Below are positions 12,300-41,270 of a DNA stretch of 64,000 nt, piece after piece. A program made the translations under genes and the position numbers. The stretch comes from a virus. Lineage: Duplodnaviria > Heunggongvirae > Uroviricota > Caudoviricetes. Where the stretch lies: IMG/VR virus record IMGVR_UViG_2795385694_000001. The stretch is one strand, 5' to 3'. Each line of letters opens with the position of its first letter. Positions within the stretch are counted from its first letter, which is position 1. The notes below the pieces were generated by a model. It did no database searches, had not been told where the DNA came from, and saw only the letters and a list, made by a program, of their open reading frames with translations.

Positions 12300-12812
12300 T
12301 CACCGTGCAAGAGCGCACGGTCCAGTGTGTGGGTCGACGTGGTAACTGGCTGGTGGTGAACATAGCGGGCCGCTGTAGCCGAAATTGGTAACCGAGATCC
12401 CCGCGCGTTCTGCTCGCTTCATGCAATCCCAGGTACCGCGTGAATCCTTCAACGGGAAGGCGATACACGTATCGGCACCACGGTCGACCATCTCCTGGTT
12501 TCGCAGGTGCCCAGCGACCGGGCAATAGCGAGTACCGTTCTTCCACCGAACGGCATGAGTGCAGTGCTGGTCGCAGTCTCGGTACCAGTCCGCAGGAACG
12601 CCCTCGTTCATTACCGGAAGGCCCTTAGCCATCGCTTCGTCGGCCCACTGCGATGCGAACAGGTCAGCACCGCTCGGGCACTCCCCCTGCACCACAACGA
12701 GATCGCCCTGGCCGCGCTTCCCTGCAATCGCAAGCTGGGCATTCAGAGCGGAACGTACGAACTTACGGGACGGCCAGGCCCGACTACCTGTAACCAGAAC
12801 GCGGCGCGTCAT
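12300..12812 (-). CDS. SLOG/DUF2493 (YspA-like) protein; apparent frameshift near the 3' end
   Basis: VLVTGSRAW...VVQGECPSGADLFASQWA...PADW motifs; a coding-like frame continues to 12184. Confidence 0.6.
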   Translation of the reverse strand: MTRRVLVTGSRAWPSRKFVRSALNAQLAIAGKRGQGDLVVVQGECPSGADLFASQWADEAMAKGLPVMNEGVPADWYRDCDQHCTHAVRWKNGTRYCPVAGHLRNQEMVDRGADTCIAFPLKDSRGTWDCMKRAERAGISVTNFGYSGPLCSPPASYHVDPHTGPCALAR

Positions 12813-12979
12813 AGCAAGGCACCCACAACCGTCACCAATAGGCCGATCACCGCAACGACCATCGCAACCGGCAATAGTGTCAGCGGCAGGTCATAGACCA
12901 AACCCATGACGCACATTCCTGACGGAACCCCCACGAGTACGCCCGACCAGTATGGAACGAGAGGGTTCAATGCCCCCAC
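12809..12979 (-). CDS. small two-TM membrane protein
   Basis: Hydrophobic C-terminal half of the 12809..13219 ORF; GTG or ATG internal start; ATGA overlap with the downstream gene. Confidence 0.3.
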   Translation of the reverse strand: MGALNPLVPYWSGVLVGVPSGMCVMGLVYDLPLTLLPVAMVVAVIGLLVTVVGALL

Positions 12980-13073
12980 CTCAGCTCCATCAACACCGGG
13001 AAGATTAGGACCAGGATGACCACGAGCCCACCCATCGCCAGTGACACGTACCAAGCCCAATCGTCCAGGCGCT

Positions 13074-13373: not shown

Positions 13374-13484
13374 GCCTGACGCTCCATCTTGATGTTCTCA
13401 ATCAACTCCGCTACCGACGCTACGAAGTCAACCACGCTCAGGGCGACGATTGTGATGCTCAAGTACTTTCTGAATTCCTTCATA
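13372..13484 (-). CDS. 36-aa hydrophobic peptide
   Basis: MKEFRKYLSITIVALSVVDF...; preceded by an 11-aa leader ORF that starts in the ACCCACATGAACC motif. Confidence 0.25.
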
Positions 13485-13560
13485 TACCAATGCTATTGAG
13501 CGATTCGGGGTTCATGTGGGTACGAAAAATGCCCCCAGCTTTCGCTGAGGGCTCTTCGAG

Positions 13561-13631
13561 TAGTCCATGCGGGAATCAAACCCGCACCAACACCTTGAGA
13601 GGGTGGTGTGCTCTCACTACACCAATGGACC
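13561..13631 (-). tRNA. tRNA-Glu (anticodon CTC)
   Basis: Hand-folded cloverleaf: acceptor GGTCCAT/ATGGACT, T-arm GCGGG-TTTGATT-CCCGC, anticodon loop CTCTCAA. Confidence 0.6.
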
Positions 13632-13637
13632 TTAGGG

Positions 13638-13976
13638 CTATTGCTCAACCCACTTGCCGGATTCACGAACCTCTGTCTTGAGGTTAACCGGCCACATATC
13701 ACGCTCCACTTGGGCACGTTGTAGGTCTTCGCGGCCCACCTGACGTTTCACCCATAGCTGGAACTTTGGTGAGCTCACCATGCGCCTGAACGCGGCCTGC
13801 TTGTTCTGCAGCTGGCTACGCTCCTCGCGCGACTCACCCACCGCGCCAGAAGGCTCATGCGTAATCCGCACGCCCGTCTCGCGCTTGTTCTGGTTTTGAC
13901 CGCCTTTGCCCCCAGATCGGAATGTGTCCACACGACAATCCGAGAGGGTGACAGACAGTACCCGTTCTCTACTCAC
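13638..13976 (-). CDS. arfB: ArfB-like peptidyl-tRNA hydrolase (class I release-factor GGQ domain protein)
   Basis: FRSGGKGGQNQNKRETGVRITHEPSG ... ESREERSQLQNKQAAFRRM matches the GGQ catalytic domain of ArfB/ICT1 and RF1. Confidence 0.8.
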   Translation of the reverse strand: MSRERVLSVTLSDCRVDTFRSGGKGGQNQNKRETGVRITHEPSGAVGESREERSQLQNKQAAFRRMVSSPKFQLWVKRQVGREDLQRAQVERDMWPVNLKTEVRESGKWVEQ

Positions 13977-13977
13977 G

Positions 13978-14051
13978 TCAAGTCGACCGGATTTGAACCG
14001 GCGTCCCCCGCCGTGACAGGGCGGTGCTTTAGACCTCTAAGCTACGACTCG
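13978..14051 (-). tRNA. tRNA-Asp (GTC)
   Basis: Acceptor CGAGTCG/CGACTTG, D-stem GCTT/AAGC, anticodon arm CCGCC-CTGTCAC-GGCGG, T-arm GCCGG-TTCAAAT-CCGGT. Confidence 0.7.
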
Positions 14052-14302
14052 AAAGAACGTTTGCCCCCAGTGGTTTTCGAGGCCACTGGGGCAGGTACGA
14101 ACAACCTGAGCCAACTTTCTGGGAATCAAACCCTGGAGCTGCTTGGCCAAAACTCCCGTGGAGACGGTGCGAATTGAACGCGACCACACCAATCTTGCAA
14201 GGATCGGTCGCCACCTTGGAACATGCGCCCCCAAGGCCCCCGTTTTGACAAGACTGGGTCTGAACTTGGACGGTTACCTCAACGGAGCCGACAACCCTGT
14301 AG

Positions 14303-14376
14303 GGCCTCATCGAGGTCTCGAACCCCGCGCCTCTTCGTTACTAAGGAAGTGCTCTAGCCAGATGAGCTAATGAGGC
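14303..14376 (-). tRNA. tRNA, anticodon AGT (Thr?), with a C.C mismatch closing the anticodon stem
   Basis: Acceptor GCCTCAT/ATGAGGC, D-arm GCTC..GAGC, T-arm CGGGG-TTCGAGA-CCTCG. Confidence 0.55.
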
Positions 14377-14425
14377 CTGGTGCATAGGCGTTTTGAACAG
14401 GTGCCCTTGCAAGTGGCCTGTGGCG

Positions 14426-14493
14426 TACCCAGTCGAGGAATCGAACCCCGCTTGGCTGGATGTAAGCCAGCTTTCGTCCCAGACTAACCAGGC
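14426..14493 (-). tRNA. tRNA-Val (TAC), short D-arm
   Basis: Anticodon arm GCTGG-CTTACAT-CCAGC, T-arm CGGGG-TTCGATT-CCTCG, acceptor with G.U pairs; 68 nt. Confidence 0.5.
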
Positions 14494-14498
14494 ATGAG

Positions 14499-14573
14499 AA
14501 CGAGTGACCAGATTCGAACTGGCACGACCTGTTTGGAAGACAGGGATGCTAAACCGTTAAACATCACACTCGC
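14499..14573 (-). tRNA. tRNA-Gly (TCC)
   Basis: Acceptor GCGAGTG/CACTCGT, D-stem GATG/CATC, anticodon arm CCTGT-CTTCCAA-ACAGG, T-loop TTCGAAT. Confidence 0.7.
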
Positions 14574-14577
14574 ATGG

Positions 14578-14644
14578 AGCGGCAGAGGTGACTCGAACAC
14601 CCTTGCAGCGGCTTAGGAGGCCACGCACTTTCCGGAACTACCGC
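14578..14644 (-). tRNA. tRNA-Arg (CCT)?, degenerate D-arm
   Basis: Acceptor GCGGTAG/CTGCCGC, anticodon arm GTGGC-CTCCTAA-GCCGC, T-arm GGGTG-TTCGAGT-CACCT; only 67 nt. Confidence 0.45.
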
Positions 14645-14649
14645 TTGGT

Positions 14650-14719
14650 AGGTTCGCACAGAATTGAACTGTGATTGCCGACGTATCAGATCGGTGTCCT
14701 TACCGTTGGACGACGAACC
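14650..14719 (-). tRNA. tRNA-Ile (GAT)
   Basis: D-stem GTCC/GGAC, anticodon arm CCGAT-CTGATAC-GTCGG, T-arm CACAG-TTCAATT-CTGTG. Confidence 0.6.
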
Positions 14720-14721
14720 AG

Positions 14722-14793
14722 TGGGTCTGGTAGGACTCGAACCTACGTCTCCGACTTAAGAGGACGGAGCTAAACCATCTCAGCTACAAACCC
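14722..14793 (-). tRNA. tRNA-Lys (CTT)
   Basis: Acceptor GGGTTTG/CAGACCC, D-stem AGCT/AGCT, anticodon loop CTCTTAA, T-arm GTAGG-TTCGAGT-CCTAC. Confidence 0.65.
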
Positions 14794-14801
14794 ATTGTTG
14801 G

Positions 14802-14873
14802 TAGGGCGCAAGGGATTCGAACCCTCAACACGCGAGGTAAAAGCTCGGGGTGATTCCGTTTCACCAACGCCCA
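14802..14873 (-). tRNA. tRNA-Lys (TTT)
   Basis: D-stem GTGA/TCAC, anticodon arm CCGAG-CTTTTAC-CTCG, T-arm GAGGG-TTCGAAT-CCCTT. Confidence 0.6.
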
Positions 14874-14876
14874 ATA

Positions 14877-15047
14877 TCAATTCATTGCCGGAAACGCCTC
14901 CCACACATGCGGATAAGCAGCGCGGTATGCGTCGCGACTGGAGCGTGTAAGAATTGTCGTCGGCTTACACCCGACAACCACCAGCCCTTCCCTGCTCACC
15001 CTCTCCACCGCGAGCTCAGGAGTCATCCTCCTGCCGTACACAAACAT
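14877..15047 (-). CDS. small hypothetical protein embedded in the tRNA array
   Basis: The ORF 14877..15113 was trimmed to the first ATG that does not overlap the tRNA at 15085..15159; moderately GC3-rich. Confidence 0.3.
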   Translation of the reverse strand: MFVYGRRMTPELAVERVSREGLVVVGCKPTTILTRSSRDAYRAAYPHVWEAFPAMN

Positions 15048-15084
15048 CGTGCCGGTGGTCGTCTCGACATCGAATACTTTCACG

Positions 15085-15159
15085 TAGTCGGCGCGAGGAT
15101 CGAACTCGCACACACCGAGGTTTGAACTCGGCGGCTTTGCCAGGTTTGCCTAGCCGACC
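15085..15159 (-). tRNA. tRNA with anticodon CAA (Leu-type) but class I (short variable arm)
   Basis: Acceptor GGTCGGC/GCCGACT, anticodon arm CCGAG-TTCAAAC-CTCGG, T-arm GCGAG-TTCGATC-CTCGC. Confidence 0.5.
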
Positions 15160-15217
15160 ATGCTCAGCATTTAACCGACCCGAGGCGGTCGGCACCCGTG
15201 AGGGCTGTTTGAACCGG

Positions 15218-15291
15218 TACTCCAAGAGGGATTCGAACCCACAACCTCCAGGGTCTAAGCCTGTCGCCTCTGCCAGTTGGGCTATTGGAGC
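15218..15291 (-). tRNA. tRNA with anticodon TAG (reads CUA; Leu-type) but class I structure
   Basis: Acceptor GCTCCAA/TTGGAGT, anticodon loop CTTAGAC, T-arm GTGGG-TTCGAAT-CCCTC. Confidence 0.5.
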
Positions 15292-15348
15292 TTGGTGCCG
15301 ATATTGCCGCGTCGGCTTTACGGTGACTCCTACTCACCGAGCGCGTCG

Positions 15349-15420
15349 AGACGAGGGCCGGGATCGAACCGGCGTGGGTCAGGGTTGCAGCCTGCCAGCT
15401 AGCCACTCACTCACTTCGCC
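15349..15420 (-). tRNA. tRNA-Cys (GCA)?, D-arm unclear
   Basis: T-arm GCCGG-TTCGATC-CCGGC is perfect; anticodon arm CAGG-CTGCAAC-CCTG; acceptor has one A.C mismatch. Confidence 0.45.
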
Positions 15421-15428
15421 CTAAGCCG

Positions 15429-15593
15429 CTATTCTGCGGCGGGTGCTGCCTTCTTCGCGGGGGCCTTCTTGGCTACCGGCTTCTCTTCCACTGCGTAGTG
15501 GAAGTCCTCAAGGGCATCCATACGATCAATCAGGTCGTTTACCGCCTTGACGATGTCGATATGGGCGATGCCCGTGCGCAGCTTGTCAGTCAT
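15429..15593 (-). CDS. 54-aa protein with Lys/Ala-rich tail (MTDKLRTGIAHIDIVKAV...)
   Basis: ATG with AAAGG RBS at 6-nt spacing; lies between tRNAs; below the track cutoff. Confidence 0.4.
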   Translation of the reverse strand: MTDKLRTGIAHIDIVKAVNDLIDRMDALEDFHYAVEEKPVAKKAPAKKAAPAAE

Positions 15594-15616
15594 ATTGGCC
15601 TTTCGGTGTCTGTACG

Positions 15617-15687
15617 TCCCCGTGCGCGGAGTTGAACCGCGATAACCTCGGTCACAGCGAGGGGCTCTGCCATTGAGCTACACAAGG
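15617..15687 (-). tRNA. tRNA-His (GTG)
   Basis: Classic D-arm TAGCTCAATGGCAGAGC, anticodon arm CCTCG-CTGTGAC-CGAGG, T-arm CGCGG-TTCAACT-CCGCG. Confidence 0.7.
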
Positions 15688-15751
15688 TATGGCGCTGGCC
15701 AGAGCAGCATGGCATCTCTGTTCCTTCGGGCTTTGTACCGGCAGCGCTCAG

Positions 15752-15826
15752 ACCCGTTGACAGGATTCGAACCTGCATGCGTTGCGCCTTCGTAGGGCGG
15801 TGGGCGCTCCATTGCCCAACAACGGG
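15752..15826 (-). tRNA. tRNA-Arg (ACG)
   Basis: Acceptor CCCGTTG/CAACGGG, D-stem GGGC/GCCC, anticodon loop CTACGAA, T-arm GCAGG-TTCGAAT-CCTGT. Confidence 0.7.
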
Positions 15827-15905
15827 ATAGCCCGACTCTTTAACCTTCTCCGTGGGTTTCGGGACCAGACTAATTCTCCTGGGAGGTGCTGGCGAGCGGA
15901 CCCTG

Positions 15906-15980
15906 TGGCGGGTACCGGATTTGAACCGGTGGTCTCAAGGTTATGAGCCTTGCGAGATGGCCGAGCTTCTCTAACCCGCT
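15906..15980 (-). tRNA. tRNA-Met (CAT) (initiator, elongator or Ile-lysidine type not resolved)
   Basis: Anticodon arm CAAGG-CTCATAA-CCTTG is perfect; T-arm ACCGG-TTCAAAT-CCGGT. Confidence 0.65.
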
Positions 15981-16105
15981 ATGTATGGTGACTCATTCCG
16001 GCAGGACAGTTCGTCGCCTACCGTATCCGCGCGAGTCAACGCGACCTTTTACGTGGAGTGCCCAGCTTTTCACCAGTAGCTGTGGAACCTGGTTTCCCTT
16101 ACACG

Positions 16106-16179
16106 CCGACTCTCCCCGAATCGAACGGGGGCGCACCGGGCTTCAACCGGTCGCTCTTACCTAACTGAGCTAAGAGTCG
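16106..16179 (-). tRNA. tRNA-Phe (GAA)
   Basis: D-arm TAGCTCAGTTAGGTAAGAGC, anticodon arm ACCGG-TTGAAGC-CCGGT, T-arm CCCCG-TTCGATT-CGGGG, acceptor CGACTCT/AGAGTCG. Confidence 0.75.
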
Positions 16180-16473
16180 ATTGTTAGAGGCTGAGAGTAC
16201 ACCCGCTATCGAGAACCTTTCGCAGCATTATGGATTCGCTGCTTCTCCAGGCCATCCCTGACCTAGTTCTCACGCCTGGTCCGTTACCGTGAACCACTCG
16301 TTATGCCGAAAGCTACTCTGCGGCTTTCCCTTCGCGATGAGATGGCCGTCTCACTGCTGCAGTACTTGCCTACAAACCGCACTCACCTTGCGGGACTATT
16401 GTGCGGCCCAGATTCCCGAGGGTCTGGGATTAAGGCGCTTTTGCTCCTCGGCAGGGGAAGGACTTTTGCTTTT

Positions 16474-16545
16474 TATTGACGACGGGACTTGAACCCGCAC
16501 ATCCAGTTTCCAATAACTGGTGACCTACCGTTGGTCTACGCCATT
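16474..16545 (-). tRNA. tRNA with a non-standard 8-nt (or 6-nt) anticodon loop; identity unresolved
   Basis: D-arm GACC-AACGGTA-GGTC, T-arm GCGGG-TTCAAGT-CCCGT; anticodon region CCAGT-TATTGGAA-ACTGG. Confidence 0.45.
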
Positions 16546-16999
16546 CTCGCAGCGGAGAATGATTTGACTAGAGACGTGCTTCCCCATGAAGTTCCGAACC
16601 CTTTTGGGGCACAGAATGCTTCACGCCTCTCGTGCTTTCGCCTGGCGGGGCTAATTACACTCTCTCTCAACCGCATTGCGAGCCGTCGCCCGACGCGAGA
16701 TCAATCATGGAACACGCCCTTGCTTGCGAAGCTCGGACTCAGTTCCTTCCGCTCCACAGGGCGCTTGTTCGATAGCCTTTTCACACGCACGTACGTGATG
16801 GTGTCCTCAGCACTTTGCCGTTGGACGGGGCGTAACTCGCAACCTGGCAGCCATCTCTGACTGCTCAAGGATTGGATTGCATGGATTGCCCTTGCGGGTG
16901 GTGGGTTGTCACCCCACCTTTCACCACCTTGCGGTGGCTTATGGGCCATGCCCCGAATATCTTAACTATATCTCCCACAACGGAGTTCGTGTGGGTGAG

Positions 17000-17082
17000 C
17001 GGAGAGGCAGGTATTCGAAACCTACTGCGAACAGCGCTCCGGTTAGCAACCGGGCCTAGTCACCTAACTAGTTGCGCTCTCC
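17000..17082 (-). tRNA. tRNA-Ser (GCT), class II
   Basis: Acceptor GGAGAGC/CCTCTCC, anticodon loop TTGCTAA, variable stem-loop GCG-CTGTT-CGC, T-arm TAGGT-TTCGAAT-ACCTG. Confidence 0.6.
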
Positions 17083-17161
17083 ATGGTCCACCATTTCAGC
17101 ACCGACGCGATCTTCAGTGCACCTGTTCAGCCACCATTCAGGCAGGTGGAAGTCTTTAGAG

Positions 17162-17246
17162 CGGAAAGTCGAGGAATCGAACCCCCAGGACGCACTGCCT
17201 GCCCCGGTATTCGACGCCGGTTGCCGACCATTCAGCGGGACCTTCC
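17162..17246 (-). tRNA. tRNA-Ser (CGA), class II
   Basis: Acceptor GGAAGGT/ACTTTCC, anticodon loop GTCGAAT, long variable arm GCAGG..CCTG. Confidence 0.55.
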
Positions 17247-17328
17247 ATCGCCCCAGAATTCATGACGCAGCCTGGCGCACACTGCGGACAGCCAACTCAT
17301 GGCAGGTACCTACCGGTTGACCCAAATG

Positions 17329-17401
17329 CTGATGACCCTGGATTCGAACCAAGACCTACGTGGTTCAGAGCCACGTGTGCTGCCGGTTACACCAATCATC
17401 A
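17329..17401 (-). tRNA. tRNA-Gln (CTG)
   Basis: D-arm GTG-TAACCGGCAG-CAC, anticodon arm CGTGG-CTCTGAA-CCACG is perfect, T-arm CTTGG-TTCGAAT-CCAGG. Confidence 0.7.
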
Positions 17402-17480
17402 ATGCTGAGACTGGCCTTGCGGGCGGGGGAACGTTTCTGCTTGCCGCAAGCCTTCAGTTCGTTCCACACCAGTCTCATTG

Positions 17481-17557
17481 TCTCGCCGTCAGGAGTCGAA
17501 CCTGCACACCCGAAGGAGCAGATTTACAGTCTGCGTTGATCGCCTATTCGCGACGAG
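17481..17557 (-). tRNA. tRNA-Tyr (GTA)
   Basis: Anticodon arm GCAGA-CTGTAAA-TCTGC is perfect; extended variable region; T-arm GCAGG-TTCGACT-CCTG. Confidence 0.6.
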
Positions 17558-17609
17558 ATTGGAGCCAGTGCTCGGCTTCTCGCCGATTCGCATGCACACA
17601 CTGACATGG

Positions 17610-17682
17610 CTGGCTTGGAAGGATTCGAACCTACACCTCGCGAGTTAACAGCTCGCTGCTCTACCAATTGAGCTACAGGCCA
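17610..17682 (-). tRNA. tRNA-Asn (GTT)
   Basis: D-arm TAGCTCAATTGGTAGAGC, anticodon arm GCGAG-CTGTTAA-CTCGC, T-arm GTAGG-TTCGAAT-CCTTC. Confidence 0.7.
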
Positions 17683-17801
17683 AGAGCGAGGGTCGCCAGT
17701 GTCAGCGCGCTTTCCGACCTGTGCGACCCTCTTGCCCGTCCTGCTTAGAGATGAGACGGAGCCGAAAACACCCGTACGGTCATCATACGTGATGACCAAC
17801 G

Positions 17802-17876
17802 TCTGCCAGGCGCGATTTGAACACGCGATCTCCTGGACCCAAACCAGGCGGGATGGCCAAACTTCCCTACAAGCAG
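17802..17876 (-). tRNA. tRNA-Pro (TGG)
   Basis: Anticodon arm CCTGG-TTTGGGT-CCAGG is perfect; T-arm GCGTG-TTCAAAT-CGCGC. Confidence 0.6.
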
Positions 17877-18156
17877 ATGATGGACGACACGGCCCAGGTA
17901 CGGCACCTCAGGTCGGATCCTTTTTATCGGAACCTACTGCGGGATTACCCTGCCATCCATATGGCCACCGGCATCCCGATGGTCGCGCGGAGATGTCTCT
18001 CCACATTCCCCGTACGACCGACGCTTTCCTGGAGCTACCTGTACTTGCGCATGTGGTCTGACAGCCGGGGCCACACTGACTAACGAGGATGTTCTCCCTT
18101 TGCACTACCGGCAGCCTACGCCGCCAGTCGGGGCTCGAACCCGAATCTTCCTCTCG

Positions 18157-18510
18157 TGGAGCTGCCCGGAATTGAACCGGGATGTTACGTGACTTGTCAC
18201 AGTCTTCTACGTGCGTAGTCCACCGATTGGGTCGGTTGGGGTGGACGCCTGTCCGAATCGAGACCTCAGACTCTCGACCGATCTTCCAGCACAGTTTGTC
18301 GCCTGAGAGCTGGTCATTGCGAGTTCCCCGTATTCGCGACGGTGGATTGGTACACGGAACGGGTAAACCGTGGTACCCCACCGGACTACGCAGCTAGGGC
18401 GTAGTCGGACTGAGCAGAAGCTGCAGTTATTGTGGTTGCACTGTTACGGGCGTTGCGGGCCCGGCACGCTTCTCAGTAAGTTGACACGCAATCGAATACC
18501 TGTCAGCCCC
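18157..18510 (-). ncRNA. ssrA: tmRNA (ssrA), one-piece, mycobacterial type
   Basis: 5' GGGGCTGACAGG...GAAGCGTGCCGG...GCAACCACAATAACT then tag reading frame GCA GCT TCT GCT CAG TCC GAC TAC GCC CTA GCT GCG TAG (AASAQSDYALAA), 3' CCCGGTTCAATTCCGGGCAGCTCCA; this parallels the M. tuberculosis ssrA layout (tag ADSHQRDYALAA, as recalled). Confidence 0.85.
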
Positions 18511-18567
18511 ATTGAAGTATCTATATCTCTATGGAATTTTCAAATGTCATGCCACACAGAGGCATTG

Positions 18568-18638
18568 CACGGGCGGAGAGAATCGAACTCCCACTAACGG
18601 GTTTGGAATCCGTTGTCCTACCTTTGGACCACGCCCAT
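18568..18638 (-). tRNA. tRNA-Trp (CCA)
   Basis: D-stem GTCC/GGAC, anticodon loop TTCCAAA, T-arm GGGAG-TTCGATT-CTCTC. Confidence 0.6.
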
Positions 18639-27552: not shown

Positions 27553-27571
27553 TTGGTTTGTATCCCTTCAA

Positions 27572-34118: not shown

Positions 34119-34972
34119 GCAACTCGCTTCAGCTCAGGGACGACACGCAGCTTGCGGGCCCACTGGCCACCGCGAACAATGTCGCGGCCACGGGCGAGGG
34201 GAACCTCGTAAATCCCCCACCTCCATTTCCCGCGCTTATCGGGAGTCTGGGGACAGTGGAACATCAATGCTGTCTCGGTATCGCAGTCATGGTCAGCGAA
34301 TTCAGCCGTACTGTCACCGTTCGGCCAGAAGTCGGCCCATGGAATGTCTTGCTGGACAACTGAATCCTGATACAGCTGACCCATCACGTAAAGCGCCAGC
34401 TGAGCGCAGACACCCATGCGGTACTGGTCGTCCTTGCCGGTCTTGATGTCCACCATGTAGCGGACACCATTCCATTCGACAATGCGGTCAGCAGAACCAG
34501 CAGCGCGTAGCGTAGACACTCGGCCATCGGGTAGCTCCATGCGATCGTTCGCTTGGAGGAAGACCTCTCGCGCCAAGAACGTCATCCCGGGAATGGATGC
34601 GATGCACTCGTGATACCCGTCCAGAATGGGCTTCATATCCTCATCGACCAGTGACCAGTCGAGGTTGCCCTCTTCCAGGACTCCGGTGAAGTCGTGAATC
34701 GATGTTCCACGCGATGACTTGTTCATCGCACCGCCGATGGTCTCGGCCTGGTTGATGACTTCCTTGATCTCGCCCTTGCTCGAGTCCCAGCTGCCGCCCT
34801 TGGCGATGATCGCCTTCACGCGGTTGAGCAGCTGAGGGTTCTGCGCAAGGCCGAACATGGCGTTGGCCTGATGCCAGGCAAACAGCCCGTCCCCCGGCTT
34901 GTCCAAATCCTTAGCGAGAGTTGAACAACGGGAGTATGCGACCCTTCGTCCCCCATCGGGGGTGTACAGCAT
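34115..34972 (-). CDS. recombination exonuclease (YqaJ/lambda-Exo-like, PD-(D/E)xK)
   Basis: VDIKTGKDDQYRMGVCAQLALY motif; sits directly downstream of the annealase gene. Confidence 0.65.
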   Translation of the reverse strand: MLYTPDGGRRVAYSRCSTLAKDLDKPGDGLFAWHQANAMFGLAQNPQLLNRVKAIIAKGGSWDSSKGEIKEVINQAETIGGAMNKSSRGTSIHDFTGVLEEGNLDWSLVDEDMKPILDGYHECIASIPGMTFLAREVFLQANDRMELPDGRVSTLRAAGSADRIVEWNGVRYMVDIKTGKDDQYRMGVCAQLALYVMGQLYQDSVVQQDIPWADFWPNGDSTAEFADHDCDTETALMFHCPQTPDKRGKWRWGIYEVPLARGRDIVRGGQWARKLRVVPELKRVA

Positions 34973-35013
34973 GGGTCGCTGATACCGGTCCCGGGGGATT
35001 GCCCAGTCAGTAA

Positions 35014-35637
35014 TTAGGCACTCGCAAGCAGCTCGAAGTGGGTGGCAGTCGCAGTCAAGGCGTCCACGTCAGTGGAGCTCACCACGGCACCGCCATCTGG
35101 GTACTGCTCCGCGAACCAGACCTGCACGTCCTTCGATGCCACGCCAGCGGCCTTGGCTGCAGCCTTCACGCGCTCCAGCGCCTCTGCGGCCCCAGGGTTG
35201 GTGGTCTTCTTCGGGGCAGCCTTGCGTGGTGCGGCCTTGGCGGAAGCGGCGTTGCCATCATCATCAACATCGGCCACCAAGCCGAGTGCTGCCATGTAGG
35301 CGTAGCGGCGTGCGTAGGTGATCGCGGAGCCGTGGGCCTGTGGGTCGTTCTTCACTGGGTGAAGGACCATCGTGGAAGAGATCTGCTCGCCGCTCTCGTG
35401 GATGACAACAGTCTTGAGCGTGTCGTAAACCTTGCCATCGGCGTTGACATAGGAGGGCTGCTGGGAGACAGCAAGACCATGCTTAGCCAGCACCGGCTGA
35501 GCCTCGCGCATCACTGCCGGAAGGTCGGCGTACTTGGACTTGAAGAACGGGTTCGCCGTGTCCTTGGCGATCACCCCGAACTCGGACTGTGCAGCAACGA
35601 GGGCCTCTGCGAGGGTTGAGTGCTTGAATTCGCTCAC
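35014..35637 (-). CDS. single-strand annealing protein (Erf/RecT-like recombinase)
   Basis: KDTANPFFKSKYADLPAVMREAQPVLAKHGL resembles the Erf-type NxFxKxKY motif; Ala/Lys-rich C-terminus. Confidence 0.7.
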   Translation of the reverse strand: MSEFKHSTLAEALVAAQSEFGVIAKDTANPFFKSKYADLPAVMREAQPVLAKHGLAVSQQPSYVNADGKVYDTLKTVVIHESGEQISSTMVLHPVKNDPQAHGSAITYARRYAYMAALGLVADVDDDGNAASAKAAPRKAAPKKTTNPGAAEALERVKAAAKAAGVASKDVQVWFAEQYPDGGAVVSSTDVDALTATATHFELLASA

Positions 35638-35704
35638 CAGTCAGTAGCTCCTATGTAGAGAAAAACGAACAAAACGACTCCCCATGGCCACCATGGGATT
35701 TGAA

Positions 35705-35932
35705 TCACTTAGAAAAATCTTCAAGAGACTTAGCCACCAGCCAGACCATTCCGGCAACGAGCGCGATCACCACCGCGAGCGCAATCGGGCCCCAGAGAGG
35801 GGCAGTGACCCACCACCACGACCAATCCTGAACCGGGTTCTCCCAAGGGCAGATTTTCATCATGGCGAGAATGCCGAAGAGAACCGTTCCGCCTAGACCC
35901 GAAATCGCCTGAGAATTCCCAGAATCACTCAC
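35705..35932 (-). CDS. small two-TM membrane protein
   Basis: GTG start with GTGA overlap; GTVLFGILAMMKI and WVTAPLWGPIALAVVIALVAGMVWLV. Confidence 0.4.
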   Translation of the reverse strand: MSDSGNSQAISGLGGTVLFGILAMMKICPWENPVQDWSWWWVTAPLWGPIALAVVIALVAGMVWLVAKSLEDFSK

Positions 35933-36360
35933 GCTGGTGTCACCTTCTTCTGAGCCTGCAGGACTGTGCCGTGGTTCCGGGCAACCCCTCGGACAAGTTC
36001 GACAACCTGTCCCTGAGTGCGGCTCGGGTCGTCGTTGTAAGCCGACACGTCCCCGCCGAATCCAGCTGGGATGGCGCGCGAGATCAACCGGTGAGCACCC
36101 CACCAAGCGCGCATATCGTCCCGAGCGGCGGACTTACCCACCGCAGCGTCCAAGGCTCCAAGGATGTCGTAGCGCACGGTGTCCCCGATACGCTCATGTC
36201 GCACACCCTGCGTCCAACCATTTGCCAGAAGGCGCGCCGCAATCTGGAGTGTTGCCGCTACAGCCTCGGGATCATCCAGCACCACAACGTTATTCTTGCG
36301 GGCGAGACGGCGTAGCCAATCAGCAGTAGACATAGCTGTAATTTTATCAACTACCCACAT
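35929..36360 (-). CDS. hypothetical protein
   Basis: ATG 36360 is the central CATG of a CTACCCACATGATG motif. Confidence 0.5.
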   Translation of the reverse strand: MWVVDKITAMSTADWLRRLARKNNVVVLDDPEAVAATLQIAARLLANGWTQGVRHERIGDTVRYDILGALDAAVGKSAARDDMRAWWGAHRLISRAIPAGFGGDVSAYNDDPSRTQGQVVELVRGVARNHGTVLQAQKKVTPA

Positions 36361-36623
36361 GATGCAGTTTGCTGGCGAATCATCCAGCTGTTGTCACGAG
36401 TCTTGTCGAGATCCCATGGCTCAGCACCCATATTCCGTAGCTCACGACACACCCTGGTGCGCTGAATCTTGAGTGTCAGCACGGCGTCAGCGTCAGATTC
36501 CCTGTGCCGCTCACGAATTGACTCATCAAGCAGGAAGAGGTCGAGAAGCTTCTCGTTCCTATTCTCCAGAAACTTGGCTGCGGATTCACTCACGCATACC
36601 AGGCTGAGCCCATACACCGACAT
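36351..36623 (-). CDS. hypothetical protein
   Basis: Start at MSVYGLSL, whose ATG lies in the motif variant ACCCACACGAACATG. Confidence 0.4.
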   Translation of the reverse strand: MSVYGLSLVCVSESAAKFLENRNEKLLDLFLLDESIRERHRESDADAVLTLKIQRTRVCRELRNMGAEPWDLDKTRDNSWMIRQQTASCG

Positions 36624-37109
36624 GTTCGTGTGGGTATGAGCGCCGAGGGACACGACCCCCTCGGCGGCGCGACTGCGCACTCAGGTCGACAGGAAGGGAT
36701 ACTACTTTGCTCGGCCTCCCTGAGTCTCGAAACCCATTCTACTGATCCTGGCTTAGATGGAATCCCACAACGGAAATAATGAACCATTTCCGCAGGTCAG
36801 GGTGTTTCACCCACATGAACCCATGCGCCATGTCGTAGCCTCCTAAAAGGAGAGTGCGAACGCAGTGAGCACGCACCTCCCGCTAGGGAGGCCCACGCCG
36901 GATTGGCGTGGCTGCCCGGAGGGCATCAACCTCCAGACCGCAGCGTCCCCACTTGAGCATGGTTCTCGGTGAAATGAATAACCCTTGCACTCAAGGTATC
37001 TCACGTTGAGATGGAGGTAGTCGTTACGTAAGTCGGGAACGGTACTAGAGCGCGTGCGCGCGAGCCCGCTACCCACATGAACCCGAAATGCGCTGCAAGA
37101 CTTTGACGC

Positions 37110-37577
37110 ATGGGAATTGAAGTACAGAAGGCTCGCGGGAACGAGGTCATCTACCGCACCCCGGACGGCCCGATCCACATCAAGGCTTGGGATGACGAGA
37201 ATGGTAGGTGGTACGTATCGCTGAACGCCCCTGACCGGTACCCGAACGGATCACGCAAGCAAACTACCCGCACCCTGCATATCGGCACGCAGTTTCGCGG
37301 CGATATCGAGGCGTTTGTCCAGGCATTCGCAACGATCTACGAGGCGGCCAGCGCTCCGAAGTCTCTAGAACCCCTCCGTGTGCTTACGTCCCTAGACTGC
37401 GATGAAGCGCGTGACGGCACGGTGTGGGCTGACTCGGATGAGGGATTCCCTTTCCACTACCGATTCCGGGGTAGTCACTGGGAATATTTCGCTCTCGAGG
37501 GTGAGCGCAGGTGGGCGGCGCTGGACGACCCACACTTGCTTAGCGGTTGCGGCCCCTATGTCGAGGTGCCCGCGTGA
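37110..37577 (+). CDS. hypothetical protein with a C-terminal SLDCDEARDGTVW domain
   Basis: First gene of the + strand island; C-terminal domain paralogous to the 10110..11153 product. Confidence 0.55.
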   Translation: MGIEVQKARGNEVIYRTPDGPIHIKAWDDENGRWYVSLNAPDRYPNGSRKQTTRTLHIGTQFRGDIEAFVQAFATIYEAASAPKSLEPLRVLTSLDCDEARDGTVWADSDEGFPFHYRFRGSHWEYFALEGERRWAALDDPHLLSGCGPYVEVPA

Positions 37578-38242
37578 GCCATCGCTCCCCTCGCCACAAA
37601 GAGGTCGCATCAAAAGGACTAATCCTCCTCGCTGAGGTTGGATCCGGCCTCCACGGTGTGACCCTGGAGGGCACCGACGACCATGACGAGATGGGTATCT
37701 GCATTCCCCCACCGGAATGCGTTCTGGGCCTGGAGAAGTTCGAGCAGTACACCGATCGTTGGCACTCAGACGGGACACGCATTCCTGACGGAGTGCGCAG
37801 TCAGCATGGCGATACCGACCACACGACGTATGCGCTGAACAAGTGGGCTCGCCTTGCAGCGCAGGGGAACCCGACCGTTCTACTCCCGTTGTTCGCACCC
37901 AAGGGAAAGATCTATAAGCAGACGCTGGAGGGCACTCAACTTCTTAGGGCCCGGAGTCTGTTCCTCTCGAGGGACGCTGGATGGCGGTTCCATGGGTATC
38001 TGAAAGCCCAGCGTGCGCGCATGATCGGCGAAAAGGGTGTGTCGAAACACAAGAATCGCCGCGAGCTGGTGGAGCAGTTCGGTTTCGACACGAAGATGGC
38101 CTACCACGCTCTGCGCCTGGCTGTTCAGGGTTCAGAATTGATGACTCGCCAAACCATCACAGTTCCCATGGCTGCTTCGAACGTGAGTTGGCTTCGGTAC
38201 GTGCGCAATGGCGGGGCATCACTCGAGGACGTGACGCGGTAG
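37574..38242 (+). CDS. Pol-beta superfamily nucleotidyltransferase; ORF ends at an in-frame TAG with a coding-like 44-codon extension to 38377
   Basis: LLAEVGSGLHGVTLEGTDDHDEMGI matches the hG[GS]x9-13DhDh NTase motif; GTG start overlaps the upstream stop. Confidence 0.55.
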   Translation: MSHRSPRHKEVASKGLILLAEVGSGLHGVTLEGTDDHDEMGICIPPPECVLGLEKFEQYTDRWHSDGTRIPDGVRSQHGDTDHTTYALNKWARLAAQGNPTVLLPLFAPKGKIYKQTLEGTQLLRARSLFLSRDAGWRFHGYLKAQRARMIGEKGVSKHKNRRELVEQFGFDTKMAYHALRLAVQGSELMTRQTITVPMAASNVSWLRYVRNGGASLEDVTR

Positions 38243-38395
38243 CTGGATCGCCTTACCGCTGCGCTCGAAATCGACATCGCGGCCTCGAGCCTCCCCGATC
38301 ACGTCGACCACGACCAACTGAACGACTTTCTCATCGGCCTGCACTACAGCTACTGGAAATGCACCGGTCAACTCTAAACACGAAGGGATAAGCAT

Positions 38396-38755
38396 ATGAG
38401 CAACAAGCGCAAGGACAGCATCGGAGTTCTCTCCAAGACCCAGGGAATGGTCAAGCTCGCGAAGCCGGGACCACCTGTTGCGGTTGGCACTCGCGTCACT
38501 GGGCACAACCTGGGCGCAGTGACGCACATTATCTCGATCGAAGCTGAGCGCGTAGGTGAGAAGCGTGCCATCGGTATCACTTTCAATGAGGATGGCAGCC
38601 TTCACGCTGTGACCGTCCACTCCGCCGAAGGTCCGCTCGCGGAATTCAAGCCAGGCACCCTCCTGAGCATTGGCGATAGTGGAGACCTTGTCGTCTTCGA
38701 TGAGGAGTACTTCTTCGACCCCGTCAGCGGTGCCAGGGTGGTTGAGGTTCGCTGA
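38396..38755 (+). CDS. hypothetical protein
   Basis: ATG after ACACGAAGGGATAAGCAT start-associated motif. Confidence 0.55.
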   Translation: MSNKRKDSIGVLSKTQGMVKLAKPGPPVAVGTRVTGHNLGAVTHIISIEAERVGEKRAIGITFNEDGSLHAVTVHSAEGPLAEFKPGTLLSIGDSGDLVVFDEEYFFDPVSGARVVEVR

Positions 38756-39024
38756 TGAAGACCTACGTCCACAACCCCACTGAGGTTGAGGCTATCCAGG
38801 TAGTGCGGCCATGGAAGGGCGTTCAGGACGCTGTCCCGTTCGCTCACATGGTGAAGAAAGCCTCTGGCGCGTTCGACTACTTCAAGGTTTCATTTCCCGG
38901 CATCTCAGAGGTTGAGCGCGCGTACGAAGGTGACTGGATCGTGAAGGACCACGGTTACTACGAAGTGCTCACGAATGTTCAGTTCCAGTATTACTACGGA
39001 GATGCCAATGGCCACGGCGACTGA
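38755..39024 (+). CDS. hypothetical protein
   Basis: TGATG overlap with the upstream gene. Confidence 0.5.
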   Translation: MKTYVHNPTEVEAIQVVRPWKGVQDAVPFAHMVKKASGAFDYFKVSFPGISEVERAYEGDWIVKDHGYYEVLTNVQFQYYYGDANGHGD

Positions 39025-39292
39025 GGCGGATGTCTCGCATCTGGTGGAGTCGGCATTTGATGAATGCGGATCCACCAATAATGATGTCGAGCATCAGGGC
39101 AAAATCGCGGCGCTTTGGGTTGGTCACACTTGCGCTACCTACCTCATGTGCGAGGCACACTTCAAGCGGGCAATCGACGTGCATATCCCTCGGCACAATC
39201 TCAAGATTGCGCAGATTGGCCACATCACCTGCGCGCTGTGTGATCGAAAGTTCCTCACCGCAGAGGAGTTCGTGAAGGTGTATCCACTATGA
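39008..39292 (+). CDS. hypothetical Cys-rich protein
   Basis: ATG 39008 with GGAG RBS; 7 Cys/His residues. Confidence 0.45.
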   Translation: MATATEADVSHLVESAFDECGSTNNDVEHQGKIAALWVGHTCATYLMCEAHFKRAIDVHIPRHNLKIAQIGHITCALCDRKFLTAEEFVKVYPL

Positions 39293-39906
39293 CCATCACA
39301 CTCCCCGACCTTGGGGATCTCGACATGGAGTCCGTGTTGGAGAACTCCTACAAGGACTTCCACTGCAAGGGCTTTGATTACCTCTGCCTGTTTCGCTCAC
39401 CTGAGCTCACGCTGAAGGCCTACTTCTTCGAGGGTGACGCCCAGGACGCGAGTGAGGTGGTGAACCCTCACAACCATCGCTACGACTTCCACACCACGTG
39501 CCTGTCCGGCGCGGTGGAGAATCGCTGGTACCGGTCCTACCCATTCACCTTCGACGCTGAGTCGAAGCCACAGAACTACAACATGTTTGACTGGCACACG
39601 CCTCTCAACGGTGGTGGTGGCTTCACGATCTCTGGTGAGATCACGTTGCAGAATTACAAGTCGATCCAACGCACCCCTGGTGGTGGATACCGGATGGCTG
39701 CAGATGAGCTGCACACCATCAAGATCCTGAAGCCAGACACAGTTCTGTTTCTCGTGCAGTACGAAGACGTGGTGCCATTGGACCAGCCAACGCAGACATT
39801 TACTCAGTCTGTCCAGCCACCTGACCTGTCGGGCCTGTACAACAAGTTCACCGCCGACCAGGCAGTGAAGAGGATTAAGCAGCTCCAGGAGCTGGCGAGG
39901 CCCTGA
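39289..39906 (+). CDS. hypothetical protein, possible cupin-like metalloprotein (NPHNHRYDFH)
   Basis: ATGA overlap upstream; His cluster. Confidence 0.45.
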   Translation: MTITLPDLGDLDMESVLENSYKDFHCKGFDYLCLFRSPELTLKAYFFEGDAQDASEVVNPHNHRYDFHTTCLSGAVENRWYRSYPFTFDAESKPQNYNMFDWHTPLNGGGGFTISGEITLQNYKSIQRTPGGGYRMAADELHTIKILKPDTVLFLVQYEDVVPLDQPTQTFTQSVQPPDLSGLYNKFTADQAVKRIKQLQELARP

Positions 39907-39926
39907 GACCCCCTGTAACGAAAGAA

Positions 39927-39959
39927 CCCCGGCTCACTATGGAGTCGGGGTTTTCTCTT
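39927..39959 (+). terminator. rho-independent (probably bidirectional) terminator
   Basis: CCCCGGCTC-ACTATG-GAGTCGGGG stem followed by TTTTCTCTT; lies between convergent genes. Confidence 0.6.
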
Positions 39960-39981
39960 GCCTACAGCCAGCTGAGGGCAG

Positions 39982-40233
39982 CTATGCGGCCAATGCACGG
40001 TAGTCCGCAATCAGCTCCTTCAGCTCCTCGGAGGCGAAGCCCTCCCAGACATTGTCGTCATCGATCAGCACAACAGGTGCGTTCATGAACCCGTGAGACG
40101 TCACGCGCTGATGCCATGTCGCGTCCTCGTCCAGACGGATCTCCTCGAAAGGGATCTCGTTCTTCTTGAGCTGGTTCTTCACCAACGTGCAGCGGTGACA
40201 GGACGGCCCGGTTGAAAAGACAGTGATGGTCAA
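39982..40233 (-). CDS. nrdH: NrdH-like glutaredoxin
   Basis: MTITVFSTGPSCHRCTLVK has the CxxC redox motif in a thioredoxin fold; ~83 aa. Confidence 0.75.
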   Translation of the reverse strand: MTITVFSTGPSCHRCTLVKNQLKKNEIPFEEIRLDEDATWHQRVTSHGFMNAPVVLIDDDNVWEGFASEELKELIADYRALAA

Positions 40234-40241
40234 GAGATTCC

Positions 40242-41207
40242 TTAAAGCGAACGCAGGTATGCCACTGCGGGTTCGATGTCGTAATTGATGTGAGGAAGGG
40301 TTGGCGGCGATTGTGCGACGAACTGACCGCCATAGATGATTGCCCTGAACACTGCGAAGATCTCCACGGGTGGATTGCGGATAATCTGCCCGACCTGTTC
40401 CAGAAGAGAGTCGGCCCCGATGAAGGCGTTCTTCAACTCCTGAACCACGCGGTAGACGGCGGTCATCATCTCTCCGGTTTTATCGTCCGGGGTGTCGGTG
40501 TAGATATCGCGGCCCCACACGCTGTTGGCCCCGTGGGCGTAGTCGTACCACCATGCCGGGGTGTCAACCAGGTGATCGTCGCCAATTCCGCGACCTGCCG
40601 GAACGGGCCAACCTGCGGCGCGGTTTCCGTTCGCCACGCCGACCTCACGACATGGGTTGCCATAAGTGACTGCACCGATGATGCGATCCTCGAGGTCGGT
40701 GCCCTTGATGTAGCGCTTCCACACCATCGAGGTGACAATGGCTCCCTGCGAGTAGCCGACCAGGACGAACTTTGCGGCCGGGAAACGGTCCAACCGCAGC
40801 TTCATCTGCCTCAGCAGTTCCGCGATACCAGCGTCCACCGAAGGCCCCATCGGGAATGCAGCAGCGGGATAGCCAATCCCCTGCCAGCGGAACAAGTCGA
40901 GAACCGCACGTGCCAGGTCAGCCGGATAGCCAGCGTCCCAGCCCGCTCCCGTGCCAGCGACAGTGAACAGCCACGGCTTCAACGCCTCAGGAACCCCGAG
41001 CGCCTTCTGCGTGGCGAAGTCCATCACGCCGTCAGTGCGTAGGCCACCCTTGTTGCGCTGGAAAGTCTTCAGGGCTTCGGTCAGCTCTGAGGTGAACTTC
41101 TCGGTGAGTTTCAGTGACTTGCCGTACGAGAACTTCGCGCGCAACTCCCCAATCGCCGCGAGAACAGGCAGGCCTTCCATGCCTTCCTGCCAGCCAATCC
41201 ATGCCAT
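40242..41207 (-). CDS. lysB: lysin B (mycolylarabinogalactan esterase)
   Basis: N-terminal peptidoglycan-binding domain; cutinase-like core with VLVGYSQGAIV catalytic Ser motif. Confidence 0.85.
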   Translation of the reverse strand: MAWIGWQEGMEGLPVLAAIGELRAKFSYGKSLKLTEKFTSELTEALKTFQRNKGGLRTDGVMDFATQKALGVPEALKPWLFTVAGTGAGWDAGYPADLARAVLDLFRWQGIGYPAAAFPMGPSVDAGIAELLRQMKLRLDRFPAAKFVLVGYSQGAIVTSMVWKRYIKGTDLEDRIIGAVTYGNPCREVGVANGNRAAGWPVPAGRGIGDDHLVDTPAWWYDYAHGANSVWGRDIYTDTPDDKTGEMMTAVYRVVQELKNAFIGADSLLEQVGQIIRNPPVEIFAVFRAIIYGGQFVAQSPPTLPHINYDIEPAVAYLRSL

Positions 41208-41270
41208 GGGTACTTCTTTCAGAGATGACGAACGGACCCACCAATAGCGGTGAGCCCGTCGCGTTTTGGG

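What the first reader, a model, noticed from the sequence alone, without database searches (positions are those of the whole stretch)
37574..38377. Nucleotidyltransferase gene interrupted by an in-frame TAG with a coding-like extension
The NTase ORF stops at TAG 38240..38242. The next 44 codons (38243..38374, TAA at 38375) stay in frame, are strongly GC3-biased like coding sequence, contain no ATG/GTG/TTG start, and read as a plausible helical continuation (...ASLEDVTR*LDRLTAALEIDIAASSLPDHVDHDQLNDFLIGLHYSYWKCTGQL). The possibilities are programmed amber readthrough or suppression, a very recent nonsense mutation (pseudogene), or a sequencing error. I did not find an anticodon-CUA tRNA among the tRNAs I could fold, but several tRNAs and RNA-like regions remain unresolved.
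Basis: seen in the sequence. Interest (0 to 1): 0.6.

Follow-up and report, generated by a model that had tools for sequence, protein, structure and literature searches.

The report
Recent nonsense mutation in prophage nucleotidyltransferase
A single G-to-A change has turned a tryptophan codon into a stop codon in an RNA-repair nucleotidyltransferase gene of a Mycobacteroides abscessus prophage, cutting off the last 44 conserved residues; it is an ordinary, very recent gene-inactivating mutation, not programmed stop-codon readthrough.

Summary
GTG37574 to TAG38240-38242 is followed by 44 in-frame codons ending at TAA38375-38377. The interpretation "recent nonsense mutation" is right; "programmed readthrough or suppression" and "sequencing error" are not supported.

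The gene is an RlaP-family (PF10127) Pol-beta nucleotidyltransferase of a cluster MabI (cluster-M-like) prophage in M. abscessus subsp. massiliense (GCA_900138155.1).

- All 11 independent orthologous alleles examined are 804 nt (267 aa) and read TGG (Trp) at this codon.
- Three of them are nucleotide-identical to the window from gene nt 538 to the stop except for G668A (window 38241).
- The lost tail carries family-invariant residues (L231, W261) and the terminal helix that clamps the two domains in the RlaP crystal structure.
- No tRNA with a CUA anticodon exists in the window or in annotated relatives.
- TAG is the conserved terminator of at least 15 other genes here.
- The same TAG appears in two GenBank assemblies and in a separate assembly from raw reads, all from one clone.

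This prophage also lacks the RtcB RNA ligase found in all 25 cluster-M/MabI phage genomes surveyed. That may explain why losing the NTase is tolerated, but this is inference. Interest is low.

The parts
37574..38242 (+). Truncated RlaP-family nucleotidyltransferase ORF: 222 codons plus TAG. It retains the catalytic Pol-beta NTase domain (G23 S24, D35 D36 x D38, D80 x D82) and most of the helical domain.
   Evidence: sequence, ORF; PF10127 RlaP, 103.6 bits against a cut-off of 23; invariant catalytic residues present; exact 222-aa product = SKY03643.1, SKZ07113.1, WP_165693916.1.
38240..38242 (+). Premature TAG. The middle base A at 38241 (gene nt 668) is a G-to-A transition from the ancestral TGG (Trp223).
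   Evidence: G at this base in 11 of 11 independent alleles. L009, L013 and L014 are identical to the window across gene nt 538-804 except at this base.
38243..38377 (+). Orphaned 3' end of the gene: 44 codons plus TAA. In intact alleles it encodes the rest of helix 217-237, the conserved L-P-D loop and the terminal helix 246-263 with invariant W261.
   Evidence: L231 and W261 invariant; L240, P241, D245, L253 at least 90% conserved; AlphaFold2 model, pLDDT 96-98 over the tail; role of the terminal helix in the PfRlaP crystal structure; GC3 0.77, no internal start codon.
12812..12967 (-). Junction where the RtcB-like RNA ligase gene sits in related phages. RtcB is absent here: only about 155 nt lie between the small membrane-protein gene and a divergent YspA/DprA-like gene.
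   Evidence: no blastn or tblastn hit to RtcB anywhere in the window; RtcB annotated at this position in prophi86-1, prophiT49-2, prophiGD54-2; gene calls at the junction.
13560..18638 (-). Phage array of 21 tRNA calls (20 with assigned anticodons, one odd GOLLD-embedded tRNA) plus a tmRNA. This is context for the suppression hypothesis: none has a CUA anticodon.
   Evidence: ARAGORN; Rfam tRNA and tmRNA; annotated tRNA sets of relatives.

Best explanation
The feature is a very recent, lineage-specific nonsense mutation (TGG to TAG, G-to-A at window 38241) in the RlaP-type RNA 3'-end nucleotidyltransferase gene of a cluster MabI (cluster-M-like) temperate phage. The phage is integrated in one clone of M. 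abscessus subsp. massiliense. Under the standard bacterial code, translation stops at codon 223 of 267. The product keeps the catalytic Pol-beta domain. It loses 15 of the 21 residues of helix 217-237, the conserved LPD loop and the terminal helix bearing invariant W261. In the solved RlaP structure, that terminal helix packs back onto the NTase domain to hold the two domains together around the RNA/NTP cleft. The most likely consequence is a destabilised or inactive enzyme, that is, an incipient pseudogene. Shown here: the ancestral codon, the single-base nature and recency of the change, its reproducibility, the conservation and predicted structure of the lost segment, the absence of any suppressor tRNA, and normal use of TAG as a terminator. 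Inferred: loss of function. Also inferred, at about 0.3 confidence: the loss is tolerated because this prophage has already lost its RtcB RNA ligase, the partner in the tRNA-repair pathway, and because a lytic-cycle accessory gene is not under selection in a lysogen.
For: (1) Three annotated phage records and eight further assemblies encode an 804-nt, 267-aa gene with TGG at codon 223. (2) L009, L013 and L014 are identical to the window over gene nt 538-804, and L009 on to nt 1302, except for G668A; no tail residue is unique to the window. (3) All other complete members listed for the 90%-identity cluster (14 of the 15 shown) are 267 aa; the only other short member listed is a 191-aa partial on a 1.3-kb contig. 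(4) The tail holds invariant L231 and W261 and near-invariant L240, P241, D245 and L253 across 51-57 homologues down to 43% identity. (5) The AlphaFold2 model has pLDDT 93.9, with the tail as helices 217-237 and 246-263 at pLDDT 96-98. The PfRlaP crystal structure description says the very C-terminal helix forms a three-helix bundle with the NTase domain. (6) The exact truncated product occurs in two GenBank assemblies and in Logan contig ERR484993_27, which is 100% identical over 33 kb. (7) There is no CUA tRNA. TAG ends 30 of 144 CDS in prophi86-1. One search's automated count gives 16 TAG stops among 91 intact orthologues in the window; one search confirmed TAG at 15 of the sites re-read. 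The NTase is the only gene with an in-frame stop. (8) RtcB is absent from the window but present in 25 of 25 cluster-M/MabI phage genomes that carry this NTase.
Against: Loss of function is not demonstrated. The catalytic domain is intact, and a truncated protein could retain some activity. Position 223 itself is variable in distant homologues (W, M, E, I, H, D, S), so low-level near-cognate readthrough would give a tolerable full-length protein. The +4 base is C, generally considered a weaker termination context in bacteria (my own knowledge, not tested here). All carriers of the TAG are one clone, so there is no evidence on long-term persistence. The RtcB link rests on n = 1: two other distinct RtcB-less prophages exist (DRR245171, ERR7253682) and their NTase state could not be determined. 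The 16 kb of the prophage outside the window and the host chromosome were not scanned for tRNAs or for RtcB.
Confidence: 0.88

Rival explanations
1. Programmed amber readthrough or suppression: the TAG is decoded as an amino acid by a phage- or host-encoded suppressor tRNA, or through a readthrough signal. The full 267-aa enzyme would then be made, perhaps only during lytic growth when the phage's own tRNA set is expressed.
For: The tail is intact, in frame and coding-like. The phage encodes an extensive translation kit: a tRNA array of 21 calls, a tmRNA, an RF-1-domain protein and PTH2. Published work interprets this kit as translational reprogramming. Near-cognate tRNA-Gln(CUG), Tyr, Lys(CUU), Trp and Leu(CAA) are phage-encoded. 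Residue 223 is tolerant of substitution in distant homologues.
Against: No CUA-anticodon tRNA is found by ARAGORN or Rfam in the window, or in the annotated tRNA sets of three complete relatives. All 11 orthologous alleles have TGG, so nothing is conserved that could be called programmed. The sequence flanking the TAG is identical to that of TGG-bearing alleles, so no dedicated readthrough signal has evolved. TAG is the conserved terminator of at least 15 other genes in this prophage, and reading it through would add 3-96 residues to them. The RF-1-domain protein is 112 aa and matches only the RF-1 domain family (PF00472), with no other Pfam match. I read it as a ribosome-rescue factor rather than a codon-specific release factor.
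Confidence: 0.03
2. Sequencing or assembly error: the true base is G and the gene is intact.
For: It is a single-base difference on an otherwise identical haplotype. All carriers are one clone.
Against: The exact 222-aa product is deposited under two different GenBank protein accessions from two assemblies (SKY03643.1, SKZ07113.1). It is also present on Logan contig ERR484993_27, built from raw reads by a different pipeline and itself seen in two samples. The site (CGGTAGCTGG) is not a homopolymer or repeat.
Confidence: 0.03
3. The truncation is functional or adaptive: the 222-aa protein retains or changes activity. Examples would be an unregulated NTase, a dominant-negative form, or a lower dose of a costly enzyme. 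Alternatively, the premature stop acts mainly through polarity on the downstream genes (38396 onward).
For: The catalytic residues and most of the helical domain are retained. A second, independent truncated allele of this gene (P0053, 166 aa, lacking the N-terminus) exists on 5 contigs of subsp. massiliense, so altered forms recur. The stop creates 153 untranslated nt ahead of the next start codon.
Against: The lost segment contains family-invariant residues and a structurally integral helix. P0053 lacks the catalytic domain altogether, which fits decay rather than a new function. The allele is confined to one clone with no sign of spread. There are no compensatory changes.
Confidence: 0.06

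Closest known systems
[quoted passage not shown] PfRlaP/PaRlaP of Pseudomonas and T4 NrdC.11
   Same: Strong Pfam match. The conserved GS / DDxD / DxD catalytic residues are present. The predicted architecture is an N-terminal NTase domain plus a C-terminal helical domain and a terminal helix, as described for the PfRlaP crystal structure. In related phages the gene sits in a genome that also encodes RtcB.
   Different: Here the gene is cut at codon 223 of 267, so the terminal helix is not translated. The RtcB partner is absent from this prophage. In cluster-M/MabI phages the NTase is about 25 kb from RtcB, not in the same operon as in Pseudomonas. Activity was not tested.
Nucleotidyltransferase of cluster M mycobacteriophages (Bongo gp47, PegLeg, Rey gp55) and cluster MabI prophages (prophi86-1 gp65, prophiT49-2 gp63, prophiGD54-2 gp55)
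   Same: Orthologous gene in the same syntenic position (between the ERF/DUF6197 block and the NrdH/lysin B block). Protein identity is 55-58% to cluster M and 79-99% to MabI.
   Different: All of those are intact 265-267-aa genes. The window's allele is the only one with a premature stop.
TAG-recoded phages carrying suppressor tRNAs (for example some crAss-like and Lak phages) and programmed readthrough such as the Q-beta A1 protein
   Same: Only the superficial picture matches: an in-frame stop followed by coding-like sequence, in a phage with many tRNAs.
   Different: There is no suppressor tRNA. TAG is used normally as a terminator. Only one gene is affected, and the stop is not conserved in any relative. 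The comparison with these systems rests on my general knowledge; they were not analysed here.

Membership tests
RlaP / PF10127 Pol-beta nucleotidyltransferase | Significant match to the family profile above the curated cut-off | tested here: met
   103.6 bits, E = 1.8e-29, cut-off 23 bits, on the 222-aa product.
RlaP / PF10127 Pol-beta nucleotidyltransferase | Pol-beta catalytic signature (G-S motif and three catalytic aspartates) | tested here: met
   G23, S24, D35, D36, D38, D80 and D82 are invariant or nearly invariant (at least 90%) in the two family alignments, and all are present in the window's sequence (VGSGLHG...TDDHDEMG...GDTDH).
RlaP / PF10127 Pol-beta nucleotidyltransferase | Complete two-domain architecture with a C-terminal helix packing onto the NTase domain | tested here: not met
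   It is encoded in the DNA but not translated. The TAG at codon 223 removes most of helix 217-237 and all of helix 246-263. The role of the terminal helix comes from the PfRlaP structure description.
RlaP / PF10127 Pol-beta nucleotidyltransferase | Genomic association with an RNA ligase (RtcB or a 5'-phosphate ligase) | tested here: not met
   No RtcB is found in the 64-kb window by blastn or tblastn. It is present in 25 of 25 related cluster-M/MabI phage genomes. The rest of the host genome was not searched.
RlaP / PF10127 Pol-beta nucleotidyltransferase | Adds one or two NMPs to the 3'-OH of damaged RNA | not testable with these tools
   This is a biochemical property reported for PfRlaP and PaRlaP.
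Programmed stop-codon readthrough / TAG reassignment | A suppressor tRNA (anticodon CUA) or other dedicated decoding factor | tested here: not met
   ARAGORN tRNAs, none with CUA, and Rfam adds no further tRNA. Relatives' annotated tRNA sets also have none. The odd GOLLD-embedded tRNA has the loop A-T-T-G-G-A, which contains no CTA.
Programmed stop-codon readthrough / TAG reassignment | The in-frame stop is conserved among orthologues | tested here: not met
   TGG in 11 of 11 alleles.
Programmed stop-codon readthrough / TAG reassignment | TAG avoided as a terminator, and/or in-frame TAGs in many genes | tested here: not met
   TAG ends 30 of 144 CDS in prophi86-1 and at least 15 conserved intact genes in the window. 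The NTase is the only gene with an internal stop.
Pseudogene by recent nonsense mutation | A sense codon in close relatives, and a single-base change on an otherwise identical haplotype | tested here: met
   L009, L013 and L014 are identical over gene nt 538-804 except G668A.
Pseudogene by recent nonsense mutation | The change is real (reproducible in independent data) | tested here: met
   Two GenBank accessions plus an independently assembled Logan contig. Read-level pile-ups were not available.
Pseudogene by recent nonsense mutation | Loss of function of the product | not testable with these tools
   Inferred from the loss of invariant residues and an integral helix.

The most novel reading that the evidence does not exclude
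The TAG is leaky in the phage's own translational environment. During lytic growth, the over-expressed phage tRNA-Gln(CUG), or another near-cognate phage tRNA, reads the weak TAG-C context often enough to make a low dose of full-length RlaP. The allele would then be a down-tuned gene rather than a dead one. A related and somewhat likelier reading is that RtcB loss and RlaP inactivation in the same prophage are causally linked. That would be natural-history evidence that phage RlaP works only together with RtcB in tRNA repair.
Probability: 0.05. Interest if true: 0.4.

Novelty: already known. Interest (0 to 1): 0.1.

Why it matters
It matters little beyond correct annotation. This locus should be flagged as a disrupted RlaP gene, whereas the databases currently name the 222-aa product as a nucleotidyltransferase domain-containing protein (WP_165693916.1). 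It should not be counted as a case of stop-codon recoding in a tRNA-rich phage. There is one modest point of interest. This prophage has lost both members of the RtcB-RlaP RNA-repair pair, which every other cluster-M/MabI phage surveyed retains. It could therefore serve as a natural double mutant for testing whether that pair protects the phage's tRNA supply against host anticodon nucleases.

Tried and rejected
- An exact-pattern scan of genome contigs for the TAG/TGG site found nothing, because the species-representative genomes lack this allele.
- A profile search of PDB sequences found no solved relative. Foldseek against PDB gave only generic Pol-beta NTase plus helical-domain hits (ANT(4'), AadA, HalB) with low TM-scores. 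The PfRlaP structure described in the preprint does not appear to be in that copy.
- An apparent frameshift in the WhiB-family gene (prophi86-1 gene 88) turned out to lie upstream of the likelier ATG start, so the gene is intact. It is not a second lesion.
- Other flagged genes (66, 138, 141, 146, 152, 156-160) are divergent or mosaic alleles, not simple disruptions. They were not pursued.
- P0053, the second truncated allele, could not be traced to a contig.
- Attempts to determine the NTase state in the other RtcB-less prophages (DRR245171, ERR7253682) failed. Exact-protein look-ups of neighbouring genes returned only other samples or the same clone.
- A dN/dS comparison of head against tail was considered and dropped. 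The tail has zero differences from its closest intact allele, so there is no power.
- The idea that the tail is expressed as a separate polypeptide was rejected, because it has no in-frame ATG, GTG or TTG.

Full report
**Observation**

- A GTG at 37574 overlaps the upstream gene's stop as GTGA and opens a 222-codon frame.
- That frame ends at TAG 38240-38242.
- A further 44 sense codons (38243-38374) run in the same frame to TAA 38375-38377.
- The tail has no in-frame ATG, GTG or TTG, and its GC3 is 0.77 (head 0.685; tail GC2 0.34).

An open 44-codon extension is not unusual on its own: 23% of stop-to-stop intervals in this window are at least that long. The case therefore rests on comparative evidence.

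**What the gene is**

The 222-aa product matches Pfam PF10127 (RlaP, 'RNA repair pathway DNA polymerase beta family') at 103.6 bits.

The window is a prophage.
- Window 34574-41242 is an exact match to contig FVQH01000001.1 of assembly GCA_900138155.1.
- GenBank attributes the exact 222-aa product to Mycobacteroides abscessus subsp. massiliense.
- The closest phage records are prophi86-1, prophiT49-2 and prophiGD54-2, at 96%, 94% and 80% identity over the 1.2-kb query around the gene.
- Those belong to cluster MabI, which is organised like cluster M mycobacteriophages: a serine integrase, about 21 tRNAs, a tmRNA and a release-factor-like gene.
- In the window, ARAGORN and Rfam find 21 tRNA calls plus a tmRNA at 13560-18638.

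**The codon was TGG**

All three phage records annotate an 804-nt, 267-aa nucleotidyltransferase. That is exactly the length of 37574-38377, and all three have TGG where the window has TAG.

Eight further independent assemblies were reached through exact look-ups of neighbouring proteins and cluster members. All encode 267 aa with TGG.

Three of them (L009, L013, L014) are nucleotide-identical to the window from gene nt 538 to the TAA, except for G668A (window 38241). In L009 the identity continues to nt 1302, into the next gene.

No amino acid in the tail is unique to the window; S259 and C263 are shared with the intact allele P0124.

So the ancestral state is Trp. The change is a single G-to-A transition, and it is too recent for any further substitution to have accumulated.

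**The change is real**

The exact 222-aa protein is recorded under two GenBank accessions (SKY03643.1, SKZ07113.1; RefSeq WP_165693916.1). It is also on Logan contig ERR484993_27, assembled separately from raw reads. That contig is 100% identical to the window's source over 33 kb. All carriers are therefore one clone, but the base call has been reproduced independently.

**What is lost**

Across 51-57 homologues, down to 43% identity, the tail contains invariant L231 and W261 and near-invariant L240, P241, D245 and L253.

An AlphaFold2 model of an 85%-identical full-length relative has mean pLDDT 93.9. It places helices at 217-237 and 246-263, with pLDDT 96-98 over the tail.

The stop falls six residues into the first of these helices. 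It removes the rest of that helix, the LPD loop and the terminal helix.

The only structural study of the family is PfRlaP (PMC12776372). It reports that the very C-terminal helix joins two helices of the NTase domain in a three-helix bundle, reinforcing the interface that forms the RNA/NTP cleft.

I infer a destabilised or inactive product. This was not tested.

**Suppression or readthrough**

- No tRNA with a CUA anticodon is found in the window or annotated in the three complete relatives.
- The odd 'tRNA-???' at 16474-16545 has the loop A-T-T-G-G-A.
- TAG terminates 30 of 144 annotated CDS in prophi86-1.
- Of 91 prophi86-1 genes that are intact and collinear in the window, 16 end in TAG by the automated count. 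One search confirmed TAG at 15 of the sites re-read; reading those through would add 3-96 residues.
- The NTase is the only gene with an in-frame stop. An apparent frameshift in gene 88 is an annotation-start artefact.
- The sequence flanking the TAG is identical to TGG-bearing alleles, so there is no evolved readthrough signal.

Basal near-cognate readthrough cannot be excluded. Phage tRNA-Gln(CUG) is present, the +4 base is C, and residue 223 is variable in distant homologues. Nothing indicates that any such readthrough is programmed.

**Context that may explain tolerance (inference)**

RlaP adds one or two nucleotides to the 3' ends of damaged RNA. It is proposed to act with an RNA ligase to restore tRNAs cut by anticodon nucleases.

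All 25 distinct cluster-M/MabI phage genomes that carry this NTase also carry an RtcB-like ligase.

The window has no RtcB by blastn or tblastn. At the syntenic site (12812-12967) there is only a short mosaic junction.

The same RtcB-less junction occurs in two other, distinct prophages (DRR245171, ERR7253682). Their NTase state could not be determined.

A plausible story is that losing the ligase relaxed selection on the NTase. With n = 1 this remains a hypothesis, at about 0.3 confidence. Independently of RtcB, a lytic-cycle accessory gene in a resident prophage is weakly constrained. A second truncated allele, lacking the N-terminus (P0053, 166 aa, 5 contigs), exists in other subsp. massiliense genomes.

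**Verdict**

This is an ordinary incipient pseudogene of a known gene family in a known prophage type. Interest is low.

Noticed in passing
window 16188-16631 (- strand), with the embedded tRNA-like element at 16474-16545: There is a full-length GOLLD RNA (Rfam RF02032, 195.7 bits against a gathering score of 150) inside the phage tRNA array. It encloses a tRNA that ARAGORN cannot assign: a 6-nt anticodon loop A-T-T-G-G-A, or an 8-nt loop with a 5-bp stem. Relatives annotate it variously as tRNA-Gln(ttg) or 'tRNA-?(Gln|Pro)(tg)'.
   Followed up: partly
window 12812-13382 (- strand): The RtcB-like RNA ligase present in all 25 surveyed cluster-M/MabI phages is missing here. The region is mosaic: an extra 99-aa ORF of about 300 nt (about 13080-13380) sits upstream of the small membrane-protein gene, and the adjacent YspA/DprA-like gene is a divergent allele (72% aa identity to prophi86-1). 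The same RtcB-less junction is seen in assemblies DRR245171 and ERR7253682.
   Followed up: partly
window 13639-13976 (-), 11830-12183 (-), 18154-18510 (-): The phage carries a translation-rescue kit: a 112-aa protein that matches only the RF-1 domain family (PF00472) with no other Pfam match (my reading: ArfB-like, though annotated 'RF-1 peptide chain release factor' in relatives), a PTH2-type peptidyl-tRNA hydrolase, and a phage tmRNA (tag AASAQSDYALAA).
   Followed up: partly
window 37110-37577 (+) and 10113-11150 (-): The gene immediately upstream of the NTase is a divergent allele (155 aa, 49% identical to prophi86-1 gp66). It was found only in this clone. Its C-terminal ~75 residues are paralogous (40-42% identity) to the C-terminus of the 346-aa protein at 10113-11150. 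A mosaic boundary therefore coincides with the NTase start codon.
   Followed up: no
protein P0053 (M. abscessus subsp. massiliense, 5 contigs; not in the window): This is a second, independent truncated allele of the same NTase. It is 166 aa, begins at the equivalent of residue ~102 and lacks the whole catalytic domain. Disruption of this gene therefore appears to recur in M. abscessus prophages.
   Followed up: partly
window 26929-27571 (-), WhiB-family gene: The window has a 1-nt insertion relative to prophi86-1, between that record's annotated TTG start and an ATG 18 nt downstream (window ~27552). The ATG is preceded by GAAGGGA. The ATG is probably the true start (207 aa, as called in other assemblies), so the GenBank start of prophi86-1 gene 88 is probably mis-annotated.
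   Followed up: yes
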